Positions 3,561 through 24,952 of a DNA stretch of 64,000 nt are shown here, piece by piece (the first letter of the stretch is position 1; each line of letters starts with the position of its first letter). A program made the position numbers and the translations under genes. This DNA comes from Flectonema sp. DT1601 (lineage: Eukaryota). Below the pieces are notes generated by a model, which was not told where the DNA came from, made no database searches, and worked only from the letters and a program-made list of their open reading frames with translations. The stretch is from positions 868,001-932,000 of the forward strand of contig OZ025791.1 in assembly GCA_964019425.1 (NCBI GenBank), written 5' to 3'.

Positions 3561-4806
3561 ATGTTCGACGACAGATGCCTCGATATGAAATTTGACTTCG
3601 AAGATGCGCTTCCTACGATAGCAGGAAAGGAAGTTGTAAAAAAGAATATTTGTTTTGATTTTCAAAGTGGGAGTTGTACCAGAGGCGACAAGTGTCCTTT
3701 CAAGCATACCATCACAACAAGAAGCAGAATGTTTGATGAGGTCTGCAAGTATTGGCTTCGTGGTTTATGCAAGAAAGGAAGTGAATGTGAGTTTCTTCAC
3801 GAATACCTCATTGAGAAGGTTCCAGAGTGTTTTTATTTCTCAAGATTTGGAGAATGTCAAAATCCCGAATGTGTATTTAAACATCCTACTTTCGATGGTA
3901 AAGTACCCGAGTGCATGGCATACGTGAGAGGGTTCTGCAAATACGGCCCTGAATGTCAGCTAAAACACACTCGTAAAGAAGCTTGTCCGAATTTCATGGC
4001 TGGCCTATGCATTGATGGTCCAAAATGTAAAATGGGTCACCCAATTCTCAAGTTCATGACTAAAGACGATATAGACAGGAAACTATCAGCCTACCGCAAA
4101 CGCATAGAAAGCACTGGTGGTCCAATTTGCCACAAGTGTGGAGAACCAGGTCATATTGCTCCACAGTGCCAGGGAGCTCAACATGCTGTTCAGAAATTAA
4201 TTGATGAATGGACCCTTCAAGGTAAAGAACCAGAAGGAAAGGGATGCTACCACTGTAATACAGAAGATCACGGATCAGCTGACTGTCCTAAGAAACGTCA
4301 ACAGTACATGAGACACAGAGTTGGAACTACAAACGCAAGAGGTGACTTACCAGAGGAAGACAGACACCGTACTAGATGCTATCGTTGTGGTGAAGAAGGA
4401 CACATTAGTAGAGACTGTCCCCTTGCAATGGCTGAGAAGGGTGGCAACAACAGGGAGAGAGACTTCAACAGAGGTGCTGCTGCTGCTGCTATTCCTGCTC
4501 CAGGAGGATGGAATAATACAAACTTGCCTGCTCCACGAGATGAGCGAGAACGCCCTGCGTACACCAGCTCTGATCCTTCTCGTGATCGAGGTTGGGGAGA
4601 GCGTGATCCAAATATAGCACTTTATGCCCAGTATCAACAACCACAACAGGTATTTACTTTTGATAAATTATCCTTGTATTTAATAAACTTTATAAATTAT
4701 TAATAAAAAAACAACACAAAAACAGCCTCCTGCTGCACCGATTGCTCCAGCAGCTCCACAGTACGCACAACCCAAACCGGCATACAGCTTCGCACCAGCT
4801 CAGTAG
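3561..4806 (+). CDS. CPSF30: CPSF30/YTH1 cleavage and polyadenylation factor; exons 3561-4649, 4726-4806
   Basis: Five CCCH fingers including VCKYWLRGLCKKG.CEFLHEY and PECFYFSRFGECQNPECVFKH, plus three CCHC knuckles. Phase-0 GT..AG intron 4650-4725 adds a P/A-rich last exon. Confidence 0.9.
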
Positions 4807-5355: not shown

Positions 5356-7884
5356 ATGGCCCCCGAAGTGGATACAAAAAAACGACGAACTGGTGGTCGA
5401 ATCCGAACCCGAAATGCCAAAAGAGAACACAACATGAGAGAGCTACTTGAGAGGGTAGAAGAAGAAGATCTCAATCAGCAACTTATTAAAATAAATAAAA
5501 TAAAATTAGACCTTAAAAGAGCAGAGGAAATGCTAACCAGAATGGACCAAGCCTATAATAAAAGACTTGAAGAAGAAGAAGAAAAACGTCAACAAGAGGC
5601 TGCAAGACTTGCTGCGATGCCAATCATACCTCCAGTGCTACCATTTTATTCTGACTGGGCAGCTACTGATACTGAAGATGAATATATTTGTCAGGCTGCT
5701 ATAAATGAACACACGACAATGCCAAATTCAGATGACGAATCTGATAACATTCGTCCATTAGAGCCACAGGATCCTCTCGGACCAATCACTATTGGATTAG
5801 TTGGTCACGTTGCTCACGGTAAGTCTTCTCTTATTAAGATGCTCACAGGTAAATCAACAATGCAATTCAGAGCTGAGCGTTTAGCAAACGCTACTATGAA
5901 ATTAGGATACGCAGACGCGGTTCTTTATCGATCATTACACAGCACACGCGGACATAGAAGATACTACATGACTAGTGGTTCTCAACCAGTTATTGATCCT
6001 GTTCATCCTGATACAGGTGAGAAGTGTGAGTTTGTAAGAAAAGTATCATTCCTAGACTGTCCTGGTCACGAAAAGTATGCTGAAACAATGCTTTGTGGTG
6101 CAATCGTAATGGACGCTGCTATTGTAGTAGCAGCTGCGAATGAAGAGTTTCCCCAACCACAGACACTCGAACACCTCGATATCTTAAGAGAATACGGCAT
6201 CCCATCTGAGAATGTTGTAGTCGCTCATAATAAAGTTGACTTAGTTGGTGGTGCTGCAGTTAATCAACTTTCTGCTATAAGAAAATATGTAGGACCGAGT
6301 GCTGCAATTATCCCTTGTTCTGCTGTTCAAAGTGCTAACAGAGAAGCCATTGTCAGCGCCTTAGCTGCGATTGCCTGTCCAGAGAGAGACATGAACATCT
6401 CAACACCACCAGTGGTAAGAGTTATTCGTTCATTTAATATAAACAGAAGAACTGGTCAAGGAAGACGTAAAGATGAAATACTCGGAGGAGTACTCGGTGG
6501 TAGTGTTGTTAGTGGTCAACTGAGAGTTGGTCAAAAGATAACATTATACCCAGCAATGTTGACTGCTACTGTTCATTCTCTAATTGCTGATGGTACCCCA
6601 ACGAATACTGCTATACCAGGGGAACTCATAGGAATTGGTACTGACTTACACCCTGACCTTGCACAAGCAGATAGACTAGTTGGACAAGTTATAGGAACAA
6701 TCGACAACACTGTTGAGATGTTTTATAAAAGCGTTCATCTTACATCCGTTGACAGACGCGTTCGAGATGGCAGAAAATCATCAAAATTAAAATGCAATGA
6801 AGAAGTTAGACTAACAGTTGGCGCTACTCACGTCTCTGGTACTGTTTTATCCAGTAAGACCTCAGCAGGAACTGCACATATAGAAGTAAATAATGCTATA
6901 TGTACAACGTTTAATCAAAGGGTTATTATTTCTAGAAGGGATGGACATAGTTTTAAAATTGTTGCATCTGGTCTCGTCCGAACGGAGTCTCATCAAAAAG
7001 ATTTACAGAAATTATACAACGGACAGCAATCGAGTGATCAAACACTTGAGGAATTCTATAGCTCGTTAAAAAAGAAAAGCAAGTGCGTCGAAGCAAGAGA
7101 ACGAGGAAGGAGGATTAGAAGAACTGCAGTTGCAGCTGCGGCAGTTGAAGTCACGAAATCTCTTTCTGAAGCAGCTCGTAGACTTGATAATGTTGATGAC
7201 GACGCAACAAGTGTTGAGGAAGAACCTGTTGTAGAAAAGATAGAAGAGATTCAACCTGGATGGTCTGACGCCTCTGATACGTCTGTTCGAAAACTTAAGA
7301 AAAAGACTAAAAAGAAGAGACGCAAGAAGGCAAACCCTGAACCAAAAACCGAACGTACTGAAGAAGACCAGGAGCTTGATCGAAACATTGGAAACAGCGA
7401 CGCGCAATACGCACGAATGCTTTACTCTGCTCTTGGTAGTGTTAATTTAACAATTCAAGAAAAGTCTAATCTAAAGTTCAAAGTTCCCGCTCCCGCCATC
7501 ATCAAACTTACTCGCCATTGCGTTGGAGTTTCTAACTTTCCTCAAATTGTAAATATGATCAACAGACCTGCTGAACATTTAAAGAATTTTATCGCTACTG
7601 AACTCGGTATCAAAGCAAGCATTGACCAACAGGGTTGCCTACTACTTAGTAGACTCTCAAAGACATCTTCTGTACAAGTTGCTCTTCGGAAGTACGTCTG
7701 GATGTTTGTTGTCTGTAAAATGTGTAACAGCGGTACAGCAGTTCACAAGACTGATGGAATGACGGAGCTATTCTGCCAGAAATGTCATGCAACTAGAAAT
7801 GTTAACTTCAACCAAGTCTCTCTCTTTACAGCTGCTACCAAAAGGGAACGAAAGGTTGCTAGACAACAGGCTGTGGAAGCATAA
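5356..7884 (+). CDS. eIF2gamma-like GTPase fused to a C-terminal eIF2beta-like domain
   Basis: GHVAHGKS, TMKLGYA, RKVSFLDCPGHE, FPQPQTLEHL, NKVD and VIRSFNIN..GGVLGGS are eIF2gamma motifs. These are followed by a Lys box, YARML, NFPQIVNMINRPAEHLKNFIATELG and CKMC..CQKC (eIF2beta/eIF5 domain). Confidence 0.9.
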   Translation: MAPEVDTKKRRTGGRIRTRNAKREHNMRELLERVEEEDLNQQLIKINKIKLDLKRAEEMLTRMDQAYNKRLEEEEEKRQQEAARLAAMPIIPPVLPFYSDWAATDTEDEYICQAAINEHTTMPNSDDESDNIRPLEPQDPLGPITIGLVGHVAHGKSSLIKMLTGKSTMQFRAERLANATMKLGYADAVLYRSLHSTRGHRRYYMTSGSQPVIDPVHPDTGEKCEFVRKVSFLDCPGHEKYAETMLCGAIVMDAAIVVAAANEEFPQPQTLEHLDILREYGIPSENVVVAHNKVDLVGGAAVNQLSAIRKYVGPSAAIIPCSAVQSANREAIVSALAAIACPERDMNISTPPVVRVIRSFNINRRTGQGRRKDEILGGVLGGSVVSGQLRVGQKITLYPAMLTATVHSLIADGTPTNTAIPGELIGIGTDLHPDLAQADRLVGQVIGTIDNTVEMFYKSVHLTSVDRRVRDGRKSSKLKCNEEVRLTVGATHVSGTVLSSKTSAGTAHIEVNNAICTTFNQRVIISRRDGHSFKIVASGLVRTESHQKDLQKLYNGQQSSDQTLEEFYSSLKKKSKCVEARERGRRIRRTAVAAAAVEVTKSLSEAARRLDNVDDDATSVEEEPVVEKIEEIQPGWSDASDTSVRKLKKKTKKKRRKKANPEPKTERTEEDQELDRNIGNSDAQYARMLYSALGSVNLTIQEKSNLKFKVPAPAIIKLTRHCVGVSNFPQIVNMINRPAEHLKNFIATELGIKASIDQQGCLLLSRLSKTSSVQVALRKYVWMFVVCKMCNSGTAVHKTDGMTELFCQKCHATRNVNFNQVSLFTAATKRERKVARQQAVEA

Positions 7885-8725: not shown

Positions 8726-10048
8726 ATGCTTCGAACGACTACCATAAAATACTGCCGCCCTATGTGGAGTACAGGTGATTTTGATCAAAGAAAACCACCA
8801 CTGGCTGACCAAGATGTCGATCATGCCTTTTCACTTAGCAATATAACCCAAGGCAAGTTTATTACTACAGTACCAGGACAGAGTGCTCATGCAGCAGCTT
8901 GGGGGATGGCTGCGACTACTCTGGATATCCCTGTTGTAAATCATAATCAGGTTTGTTGCTGTTTGTTTTTTAAAGTGTGAGTAAAAAAGTAAAAAAGTGA
9001 AGTTATTCCAATTATTTTTTTTAGAATCTGTTTATGCTGTCTGGTGTTCAACAAAAGACATAAAAAACAGGCTCAAATAAATGAACAGACACATCTCAAC
9101 GAATCAGTTGCCAATCATTATCAAATATTCGACAGTCCTATGGAGGAGGGTGTGGCTGGTGTTTGGAATTTTCCATATTTCTTTAATCAAGAAGAACAAA
9201 AAAAGGTTCAAGAAGAGTTGAGTCCCCGTTTTCGAGATCCAAACTACAGCGTCCAAGTAAAGAATACTTTCACACTTATGAAGAATAGCAGATTCGTTGA
9301 CGGGACAGGAACAGATGATTCCGTTAGAAATAGTTCTTTACGTCATGGATGGGTTGAGAGAAATCATCCCGCGATATCTCATGTTGGAAGGAGGAATTTA
9401 GTTCACGTGTCAGAAAGGAATTGTGAAGCGAGAAAAAAAAATTTCTTAACATTTGAAAATCTCCCTGCTATCAGAAACATGCGAGACAAAGTGTGGACAC
9501 ATTTCTCATCACCAAGACCAGCAACACGTTCATGGAAGGGACAATCTCCTCAAGAGTGGTTTCCAGTCTTGGACAGAAAACCTAATTTGGTACGGTGTTC
9601 CGAGTGGATGGAACACACTTCAGGAATGAATTCACATATAAAACCACCGTCATTTGGTAATTATATTTGTATTGTTAACTTATTCACTTATGGATTATTA
9701 CAACTATGTCATCCCGATCATCAGTTTCATAAAGAGACTGAGTACTACGACACTAGTCGAAATATAGAAATTCCTGATGGTCATTTACCCGCTACTAAGA
9801 TTGTGTTACTTCCTGGTTCATTAACTATTTTAAAATATGATGGGAGGTGGTTAATACCATATGGATATTCCTATGAACAAGATCAAATATATAGAGGATC
9901 TACCTTCCCGAAAGACTACCGAGTCTCTCTAATGTTTTCTCACTTCTCAAAAACAAACCCTGGAATGAATTCAGAGGAACCTATAATGAAGTACGATTCA
10001 TGTCCTGACAACGGTCTTCCAGACCCTTCTCTTGCTGGTAAATCATAA
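8726..10048 (+). CDS. AlkB-like 2OG-Fe(II) dioxygenase-fold protein, possibly mitochondrial; exons 8726-8950, 9071-10048
   Basis: Phase-0 intron 8951-9070 joins two ORFs. PNLVRCSEW..HIKPPSFG, LLPGSLTILKYDGRW and RVSLMF resemble the AlkB strand pattern. Confidence 0.55.
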
Positions 10049-24100: not shown

Positions 24101-24952
24101 ATGCAAGTTTTTGTGACGTGTCCGGATTGGGGACTCTCCGCAGTGACAGTGACCGCTGGTGTCGATTCCGTTGTGAGCGACGTGTTGACGGCGGCGGCTG
24201 GGGAGTGGGATGTCGATCCGGAGGAAGTTGAACTCTCGTTTGCTGGTGATACCCTTTGCGAGACTGATCGGCTGGCAGATCATGGAGTGGTTGCAAACAG
24301 TGAGTTGGAAATGTGGAAGAAGCAGTTTAGGATATTCGGTAAATGTTGGTTTGTTGATGATACAAAACGGGAAAAGTTGCTTCTTTGGATCAGAGACCAC
24401 ATTACGGAGAACTTATATCTGGACACTCCCACATTCGCAAAAGATGGTTGCCTCACTGTTGACGGTGACCTGCTTCCTTTAGATGCCGAGCAGGTTGCTT
24501 TCCGCAATTCAAATTCCAACAGCACAGCCATGTCATCAGTTACTAGAGTTGCAAATTATTTCTTGAATTCCTATTCAAATATCACTGCACTTGACCTTTC
24601 AGGTCTTAGTAGCGTCACCACTATTGGTAATTATTTCTTGTCTTTCTGTTCACTCACCGCACTTGACCTTTCGGGTCTTAGTAGCGTCACCATTATTGGT
24701 CATAATTTCTTGGCTCACTGTTTCCAAATCACTTCTCTTGACCTTTCAGGTTTTAGTAGTGTCGCCTTTATTAATCATAGTTTCTTGTTTTATTGTTCAG
24801 AAATCACTTCTCTTGACCTTTCAAGTCTAAGTAGTGTCACGAGAATTGGAATGAATTTTCTCAGTGAATGCAAAGCTCTTGAATCTGTACAGTTACCTGA
24901 AAGTAATAGCGCTCTCTTTGAGAAGAGTGTGGAGACAGCGATAAGTAATTAA
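24101..24952 (+). CDS. Ubiquitin-like domain plus leucine-rich repeat protein
   Basis: VELSFAGDTL..TDRLADHGVVANSELEM is Ubl-like. Four to five ~22-23-aa repeats of type ITALDLSGLSSVTTIGNYFLS are also visible at DNA level. Confidence 0.85.
   Translation: MQVFVTCPDWGLSAVTVTAGVDSVVSDVLTAAAGEWDVDPEEVELSFAGDTLCETDRLADHGVVANSELEMWKKQFRIFGKCWFVDDTKREKLLLWIRDHITENLYLDTPTFAKDGCLTVDGDLLPLDAEQVAFRNSNSNSTAMSSVTRVANYFLNSYSNITALDLSGLSSVTTIGNYFLSFCSLTALDLSGLSSVTIIGHNFLAHCFQITSLDLSGFSSVAFINHSFLFYCSEITSLDLSSLSSVTRIGMNFLSECKALESVQLPESNSALFEKSVETAISN

What the first reader, a model, noticed from the sequence alone, without database searches (positions are those of the whole stretch)
5356..7884. Single-chain eIF2gamma-eIF2beta fusion
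Seen: one uninterrupted 842-aa ORF with a ~140-aa charged N-terminal extension and the eIF2gamma G domain and beta-barrels. A linker with a poly-Lys box (KLKKKTKKKRRKK) follows, then a YARML helix resembling the gamma-binding helix, then the eIF2beta core with its C4 zinc ribbon and FTA..R tail. Established: beta and gamma are normally separate subunits of heterotrimeric eIF2. Inference: a divergent fused paralogue that might deliver initiator tRNA under different regulation, for example independently of eIF2alpha phosphorylation or eIF2B.
Basis: partly seen in the sequence, partly recalled or inferred. Interest (0 to 1): 0.82.

Follow-up and report, generated by a model that had tools for sequence, protein, structure and literature searches.

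The report
Extra fused eIF2 in diplonemid plankton
Diplonemids, abundant marine protists, carry an extra gene alongside their normal eIF2 (the factor that brings the first tRNA to the ribosome). It joins two of the three subunits into one protein and has changed the residues that normally grip the third, stress-regulated subunit, so it likely acts as a back-up start factor that stress signalling would not switch off (untested).

Summary
The fusion is real. One 842-aa ORF holds a complete eIF2gamma, a K-box, the gamma-binding helix and the eIF2beta core. The same gamma-beta protein occurs in six other records: Trinity transcripts of Flectonema, Diplonema ambulator and Rhynchopus, the D. papillatum genome, and two unnamed assemblies. 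Hemistasia has a related eIF5-gamma-eIF5-beta protein. It is an extra copy: D. ambulator, R. euleeides and Hemistasia also have ordinary gamma, and D. papillatum has separate alpha, beta and gamma.

GTPase motifs and the beta-docking site are kept. The eIF2alpha-binding aspartate (yeast D403) is lost in 7 of 7 fusions but kept in 84 of 84 eukaryotic, archaeal-like and viral references, and the alpha-binding loop is also rewritten. Best reading (about 0.4): an alpha-less auxiliary Met-tRNAi carrier, immune to eIF2alpha phosphorylation but still contacting eIF5/eIF2B through its K-box.

This scan found gamma-beta fusions before on giant-virus DNA; I confirmed them in 17 of 36 viral loci. Trees lean toward viral origin but do not reject host duplication. 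I found no paper describing the fusion. Function is untested, and the protein was not seen in the held part of a D. papillatum proteome.

The parts
5356..7884 (+). Whole ORF, 842 aa, eIF2gamma-eIF2beta fusion (P0001)
5356..5775 (+). N-terminal extension (aa 1-140): Arg-rich GGRxRTR motif and long predicted helices (14-32, 36-86), then an acidic low-confidence stretch; the motif and helix are shared by the 6 Diplonemidae copies with an intact N-terminus; no known family
   Evidence: alignment; identities 20-23 of about 63 to distant copies; models; no Atlas hit
5782..6390 (+). eIF2gamma G domain (aa 143-345): G1 GHVAHGKS, switch-1 Thr180, LGY, DCPGH, NKVD kept; G5 reads SAV; no four-Cys knuckle; beta-docking surface at aa 294-328
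6391..6705 (+). eIF2gamma domain II (aa 346-450)
6427..6489 (+). Alpha-binding loop (aa 358-378; yeast 320-335): the conserved KPG is replaced (Pro in 0 of 7 fusions against 36 of 36 eukaryotic and 14 of 14 archaeal-like references)
   Evidence: loop role from PMC8844851
6649..6651 (+). His432, at the position of yeast Gcd11 Asp403, which is required for eIF2alpha binding
   Evidence: alignment to yeast; counts; PMC8844851
6706..6984 (+). eIF2gamma domain III (aa 451-543), the most diverged gamma domain
6985..7398 (+). Linker (aa 544-681), mostly low-confidence in the models, without Met; variable in length across species
7291..7329 (+). Single K-box (aa 646-658), preceded by a conserved acidic Ser/Asp patch
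7399..7443 (+). eIF2beta alpha-1 helix (aa 682-696; Y685, M688, L689), predicted to dock on the gamma G domain
7459..7791 (+). eIF2beta core and C4 zinc ribbon (aa 702-812)
7792..7884 (+). Basic eukaryote-type beta C-terminal tail and stop codon

Best explanation
This is an old nuclear diplonemid gene, transcribed in relatives and kept beside the normal eIF2 genes, whose product joins eIF2gamma and eIF2beta in one chain and likely works as an alpha-less auxiliary carrier of initiator tRNA. Shown: the fusion, its conservation, coexistence with canonical subunits in relatives, intact GTPase motifs, and the altered alpha-binding residues. Predicted: the tethered beta helix docks on the gamma G domain, giving a permanent gamma-beta unit. 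Inferred: it binds GTP and Met-tRNAi with help from the beta tails, meets eIF5 and eIF2B-epsilon through its one K-box, does not carry eIF2alpha, and so would not be trapped on eIF2B when alpha is phosphorylated. It would support a low level of initiation under stress or on selected mRNAs. Origin is open: capture from a giant virus (about 0.55) or duplication and fusion of host genes (about 0.4).
For: Conservation: the same layout is in 7 Diplonemidae-type records, with G-domain identity to the window copy of 121-132 of 205 in the four distant full-length copies. Coexistence with canonical subunits: and PMC12697944 supplement rows. Of 41 gamma positions at least 85% conserved in each of the eukaryotic, archaeal-like and viral sets, 36 are kept, 2 partly kept and 3 lost; one of the lost is the D403 equivalent. 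That Asp is present in 36/36 eukaryotic, 14/14 archaeal-like and 34/34 viral-locus rows and in 0/7 fusions; the loop Pro is also 0/7. In yeast D403R abolishes alpha binding but not beta binding (PMC8844851). Beta docking: ipSAE 0.64 against a best control of 0.26, runs agreeing in at least 87% of contacts, partner pLDDT at least 67; the mark was reached by 51 of 78 solved and 2 of 108 mismatched pairs (eukaryotes: 71 of 105 and 2 of 126). Like complexes are solved, so the pass may be from memory. With a 48-row alignment the helix block 681-690 rises to pLDDT 91 from the 30s. Precedent: a chimeric beta-gamma dimer binds Met-tRNA with Kd 55 nM, alpha-gamma with 9200 nM, and an alpha-less yeast strain has been built (PMC3553985).
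Against: No biochemical or expression-level data exist. Yeast D403R gamma cannot support life as the sole copy (PMC8844851). His or Pro is not Arg, and 12 of 184 other rows also lack the Asp. G423, next to what I recall as the methionine pocket, is changed to Ala/Glu in 7 of 7 although it is Gly in 36/36 eukaryotic and 34/34 viral rows, so tRNA binding may differ. The fused gamma evolves fast (53% between two species against 87% for canonical gamma), and the D. papillatum copy has changes in G1, LGY and the loop. In the P. papillatum proteome only canonical gamma appears in the held 3,120 of about 4,870 rows, so the fusion was not seen in the eIF2/eIF3 cluster. The related Hemistasia protein keeps the Asp and the loop Pro-Gly. 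The 140-aa N-terminal part is unexplained.
Confidence: 0.4

Rival explanations
1. Alpha-less decoy or regulator: it binds eIF5, eIF2B-epsilon, the 40S subunit or tRNA without productive delivery and so dampens or reshapes initiation, possibly in antiviral or dormancy responses.
For: The K-box and beta core are kept while the alpha site and G423 are changed. Alpha-binding-deficient yeast gamma is dominant negative through Cdc123 (PMC8844851). The fusion was not seen in the eIF2/3 cluster of the held proteome rows.
Against: A pure decoy would not need all G motifs, switch-1 Thr, LGY and RSF, which are kept at 36 of 41 universal positions.
Confidence: 0.2
2. It still forms a trimer with eIF2alpha (the host copy or an unrecognised divergent alpha paralogue) and is a specialised but conventional eIF2, as proposed for viral gamma-beta fusions.
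For: Viral gamma-beta fusions keep the Asp (17/17), and 4 of 18 fused viral loci (one already fused to alpha) have a separate alpha gene within 5 kb. The Hemistasia relative keeps the site. RSFxxN is kept in most copies.
Against: The Asp and the loop Pro are lost in 7 of 7 Diplonemidae copies. Only one eIF2alpha row appears in the held P. papillatum table. I could not search for alpha paralogues.
Confidence: 0.2
3. It has left initiation and serves another RNA-linked role (tRNA handling, ribosome maturation, nuclear function) through the new Arg-rich helical N-terminus.
For: The N-terminal motif and helix are conserved and have no known match. Rates are fast and domain III has diverged strongly.
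Against: The eIF2-specific modules (K-box, alpha-1 helix, zinc ribbon, basic tail) are all retained together. There is no positive evidence for another role.
Confidence: 0.17
4. Artefact: a misassembly, or two genes processed separately.
For: No reads could be laid on this assembly.
Against: Full fusions occur in three Trinity transcript sets and three other genome records. There is no Met for a separate beta, and codon use matches neighbouring genes (RSCU r = 0.90, GC3 0.28).
Confidence: 0.02

Closest known systems
Eukaryotic eIF2 heterotrimer (gamma EIF2S3/Gcd11, beta EIF2S2/Sui3, alpha EIF2S1/Sui2)
   Same: Three-domain gamma GTPase with intact G motifs; beta with K-box, gamma-binding helix, core, C4 ribbon and basic tail; predicted beta-gamma interface at the canonical site.
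   Different: One chain; one K-box instead of three; alpha-binding Asp and loop altered; only about 38% identical to the host's canonical gamma; extra 140-aa N-terminus; present in addition to the canonical subunits.
Giant-virus (Nucleocytoviricota) eIF2 gamma-beta fusion proteins
   Same: Same gamma-then-beta order: 17 of 36 IMG/VR loci; top ESM Atlas cluster, score 0.94, 154 members, all with known taxon viral. Viral eIF2 subunits are published (PMC11946776, PMC6401483), but the passages I read mention no eIF2 fusion.
   Different: Viral forms are mostly 577-661 aa with short linkers, no K-box (0 of 18), no long beta tail (0 of 18), and keep the alpha Asp (34 of 34 viral rows). The diplonemid gene is nuclear, host-like in codon use and flanked by ordinary eukaryotic genes. 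No close viral relative was found.
Engineered alpha-less yeast eIF2 beta-gamma
   Same: A beta-gamma unit that binds Met-tRNA without alpha (PMC3553985 passages; Nika 2001 and Erickson 2001 seen only as citations).
   Different: That is a laboratory construct; this would be a natural, covalently fixed version.
Su(var)3-9/eIF2gamma fused locus of arthropods
   Same: eIF2gamma sequence joined to another gene (PMC1435931, search listing only; P0112).
   Different: The partner is functionally unrelated, not another eIF2 subunit.

Membership tests
eIF2gamma/aIF2gamma translational GTPases | G domain plus two beta-barrels, with eIF2_C domain | tested here: met
   Pfam; PDB; Foldseek top hits are eIF2gamma
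eIF2gamma/aIF2gamma translational GTPases | Intact G1-G4 motifs and switch-1 Thr | tested here: met
   G5 reads [SC]AV rather than SAQ
eIF2gamma/aIF2gamma translational GTPases | eIF2alpha-binding platform (yeast loop 320-335, D403) | tested here: not met
   Asp 0 of 7, loop Pro 0 of 7; sequence test only
eIF2gamma/aIF2gamma translational GTPases | eIF2beta-binding pocket (yeast V281 region) | tested here: met
   I319 hydrophobic; predicted docking (may be from memory of solved complexes)
eIF2gamma/aIF2gamma translational GTPases | GTP-dependent Met-tRNAi binding | not testable with these tools
   LGY, RSF and G426 kept, G423 changed
Eukaryotic eIF2beta | IF2B/IF5 core with C4 zinc ribbon, closer to beta than to eIF5 | tested here: met
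Eukaryotic eIF2beta | Gamma-binding alpha-1 helix (yeast Y131, L134, L135) | tested here: met
   YxxML/YxxLL in 7 of 7 and docking; phmmer alone aligned it one turn off
Eukaryotic eIF2beta | Three K-boxes | tested here: not met
   One K-box seen in the alignment; at least 5 Lys in 8 residues in 6 of 7
Canonical heterotrimeric eIF2 | Three separate subunits, sole Met-tRNAi carrier of its kind in the cell | tested here: not met
   Fused, and additional to canonical genes in relatives; not checkable in the window's own genome
Giant-virus gamma-beta fusions | Located on viral DNA | tested here: not met
   Neighbours are PI-PLC, CCCH/CCHC protein, methyltransferase, DEAD helicase, Vps16, PPR, HSP70; no viral hallmark among the 24 other ORFs scanned
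Giant-virus gamma-beta fusions | Common descent of the gamma part | tested here: inconclusive
   Placement unstable; AU p 0.40 with the viral clade, 0.36 with all fused rows, 0.23 with canonical eukaryotes, 0.13 with diplonemid canonical gamma
Giant-virus gamma-beta fusions | Short K-box-less linker and retained alpha Asp | tested here: not met

The most novel reading that the evidence does not exclude
A eukaryotic lineage domesticated a giant-virus single-chain eIF2 gamma-beta (or built one itself), stripped its alpha-binding site, and now runs a second, eIF2alpha-free initiator-tRNA pathway that keeps translation starting when the integrated stress response is on: a natural ISR-proof eIF2 in a cell.
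Probability: 0.3. Interest if true: 0.9.

Novelty: new variant of a known kind. Interest (0 to 1): 0.72.

Why it matters
eIF2 is among the most conserved eukaryotic machines, and its alpha subunit is the hub of stress control of translation. A lineage-wide second copy that fixes beta to gamma and changes an otherwise near-invariant alpha contact would be a natural test of whether eIF2 can work without alpha, so far shown only in engineered yeast. It may also be a core translation factor moved from giant viruses into a host. Paradiplonema (Diplonema) papillatum has the gene (KAJ9457610.1, annotated only as gamma) and can be tagged, so the question is directly testable.

Tried and rejected
No whole genome is held for the window, so canonical genes and synteny in this organism were not checked. 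Sequencing runs: none was listed. Scans of viral contigs with P0019, P0001 and the diplonemid alignment found no relative. The N-terminal 140 aa gave no usable Atlas hit. The careful IQ-TREE search did not finish, so only quick and FastTree trees were used. No tree of the beta part was built because no canonical eukaryotic beta sequence was held. As a rough substitute, phmmer scores of residues 600-842 were 63 and 59 bits for the best environmental fusions against 56 for yeast and 52 for T. cruzi beta, which is too close to decide. A guessed D. papillatum locus tag had no hit in the proteome supplement, and the guess is unverified. Erickson 2001 is not held. I rejected the idea that the fusion replaces canonical gamma, that the C-terminal domain is eIF5, and that the gene lies in a recent viral insertion. 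The 'HPxTG' segment in the G domain is shared with both euglenozoan canonical and virus-like gammas, so it does not indicate origin. Alpha binding was not modelled because no diplonemid alpha sequence was held.

Full report
OBSERVATION. The ORF at 5356-7884 (+) is a single 842-aa frame. Pfam and solved-structure searches give eIF2gamma at about 143-543 and eIF2beta at about 682-831. No Met lies between residues 456 and 687.

CONTEXT. All 30 ORFs listed in the window are on the + strand, and the 24 other ORFs scanned are ordinary eukaryotic genes or have no family. GC3 (0.28) and codon use (r = 0.90 against 12 neighbours) match the host. The closest relative is a complete Flectonema neradi transcript ORF at 84% identity, so the organism is inferred to be a diplonemid of the family Diplonemidae. 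No genome is held.

DISTRIBUTION. The same gamma-K-box-beta protein was found in F. neradi, Diplonema ambulator and Rhynchopus euleeides (Trinity transcripts; the last is N-terminally incomplete), in D. papillatum (KAJ9457610.1), and in two unnamed ENA records, P0003 and P0081, which group with them. Hemistasia has a 1187-aa protein with three IF2B/IF5 domains around gamma; its internal one best matches T. cruzi eIF5. Ordinary free gamma was identified in D. ambulator, D. japonicum, R. euleeides, R. humris, Lacrimia, Artemidia and Hemistasia. A P. papillatum proteome lists separate alpha, beta and gamma in one cluster (PMC12697944 supplement rows). The fusion is therefore an extra copy in those species. 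I did not identify canonical genes for Flectonema or the window organism. The fused gamma evolves faster than the canonical one: 53% against 87% identity between D. ambulator and R. euleeides.

GIANT VIRUSES. Of the best 150 library hits, 47 were gamma-beta by my own profiles (5 of them diplonemid), 86 gamma only, and 17 other fusions with alpha or eIF5-like domains. An alignment of 25 such proteins retrieved 36 IMG/VR loci, 17 with gamma-beta and 1 with alpha-gamma-beta; the query favours fused forms. The top ESM Atlas cluster has the same domains and is viral. Earlier notes of this scan had reported these viral fusions; none concerned a diplonemid.

WHAT IS KEPT AND WHAT IS LOST. I aligned 191 gamma regions, leaving out 31 intein-split, partial or otherwise irregular proteins and 2 loci. 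'Archaeal-like' is my label from the tree and motifs. Of 41 positions at least 85% conserved in each of 36 eukaryotic, 14 archaeal-like and 34 viral rows, the 7 Diplonemidae fusions keep 36, partly keep 2 and lose 3: N145, G423 and the Asp at 432. With viruses excluded, 12 of 64 positions are lost. Position 432 aligns with yeast D403. That residue contacts eIF2alpha domain III, and D403R abolishes alpha but not beta binding and is lethal (PMC8844851 passages). It is Asp in 36/36, 14/14 and 34/34 reference rows, in Hemistasia, and in 172 of 184 non-Diplonemidae rows overall, but His or Pro in 7 of 7 fusions. The second alpha contact, the yeast 320-335 loop, loses its Pro in 7 of 7 (36/36 and 14/14 in references; 24/34 in viruses). 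The beta side is intact: YxxML/YxxLL in 7 of 7 and a hydrophobic residue at the V281 position. A K-box of at least 5 Lys in 8 residues is in 6 of 7 fusions, 0 of 18 viral and 1 of 43 environmental gamma-beta proteins. A tail of at least 15 residues after the zinc ribbon is in 6 of 7, 0 of 18 and 8 of 43.

STRUCTURE. AlphaFold2 gave mean pLDDT 63 with 9 rows and 78 with 48 rows, where the beta helix block reaches 91. Foldseek hits are eIF2gamma. In the viral library the top hit is a 934-aa Marseillevirus LCMAC201 protein aligned over about 705 columns. Folding residues 138-546 with 676-842 placed Y685, M688, L689, A692 and L693 against G-domain residues 294-305 and 314-328, the canonical beta site. 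The score was 0.64 against a best control of 0.26, with contact agreement of at least 87% and partner pLDDT of at least 67; the mark was reached by 51 of 78 solved and 2 of 108 mismatched pairs. Similar complexes are solved, so this shows likeness, not binding.

ORIGIN. The seven diplonemid fusions in the 53-row tree, Hemistasia included, form one branch (SH-aLRT 96) outside the canonical eukaryotic gammas in all three trees, but their place moves. They sit in an all-fused 19-row group with 7 viral loci (94), next to unfused environmental rows, and near the root. AU tests reject nothing. Holding them with the viral gamma-beta clade costs 2.6 lnL (p 0.40), with all fused rows 2.2 (p 0.36), with canonical eukaryotes 8.3 (p 0.23), and with diplonemid canonical gamma 15.0 (p 0.13). 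Long branches are in play. The K-box and tail are cell-like features. I put viral capture at about 0.55 and host duplication at about 0.4.

MECHANISM. Best reading (0.4): a permanent gamma-beta unit without alpha that loads Met-tRNAi and is not held on eIF2B when alpha is phosphorylated. Alpha domain 1 makes the main eIF2B contact (PMC6572841 passages), and in yeast-type eIF2 beta, with its tails, gives most of the tRNA affinity (PMC3553985 abstract and passages). The retained K-box argues that eIF5 and eIF2B-epsilon are still contacted (PMC12439599 passages), so full eIF2B independence is not favoured, although eIF2B can be bypassed in yeast (PMC3877758 passage). Against this reading: G423 is changed, the D. 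papillatum copy is eroded, yeast needs alpha binding for viability at normal dose, and only canonical gamma appears in the 3,120 held rows of about 4,870 in the proteome table; the unseen rows could hold the fusion. Rivals are a decoy (0.2), a still-trimeric factor (0.2), another RNA role (0.17) and artefact (0.02).

LITERATURE. Eight searches listed no paper on a natural gamma-beta fusion, and none held diplonemid together with eIF2 and translation initiation. PMC11946776 (passages) has no 'fusion'. PMC6401483 (passages, section 7) tabulates viral eIF2 genes without noting fusions. PMC10161547 (passages, supplements), PMC12699882 (passage), PMC7052976 (term search) and PMC8611851 (supplements) do not mention it. 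Subscription papers and bioRxiv supplements are not covered.

VERDICT. A real, conserved, apparently undescribed cellular variant of eIF2, with a specific and testable sign of alpha loss. Function and origin are unproven.

Noticed in passing
P0084 (Hemistasia transcript): A 1187-aa protein with an eIF5-like domain, gamma, a second eIF5-like domain and a beta core. Both eIF5-like domains keep a YRYRMP motif (its role as the GAP arginine is recalled), which would fuse a GTPase to its own activator. It keeps the alpha-binding Asp.
   Followed up: partly
P0085, P0087, P0088, P0219, P0154, P0203, P0189, P0205, P0216, L013:4191-6785: Single-chain eIF2 in several subunit orders: beta-gamma-alpha, gamma-alpha-beta, alpha-gamma-beta, and forms with an N-terminal eIF5-like domain.
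   Followed up: partly
P0015, P0119, P0129, P0140, P0141, P0167, P0171: Gamma-alpha fusions, 7 of the best 150 hits.
   Followed up: no
P0101, P0150, P0116, P0134, P0152, P0158: eIF2gamma/aIF2gamma proteins interrupted by inteins or Hint domains.
   Followed up: no
window 3561-4806: The CCCH/CCHC zinc-finger gene (CPSF30-like, name recalled) appears to have a GT-AG intron from about 4650 to 4724 and a short last exon, so the listed ORF end is probably wrong.
   Followed up: no
window 24101-24952: BspA-type LRR gene whose codon use differs from its neighbours (r = 0.41, GC3 0.41).
   Followed up: no
window 9140-10048: A 302-aa ORF just downstream with no Pfam match.
   Followed up: no
window 1-64000: All 30 listed ORFs are on the + strand, as expected for a euglenozoan gene cluster; an N gap lies near 16 kb.
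   Followed up: no
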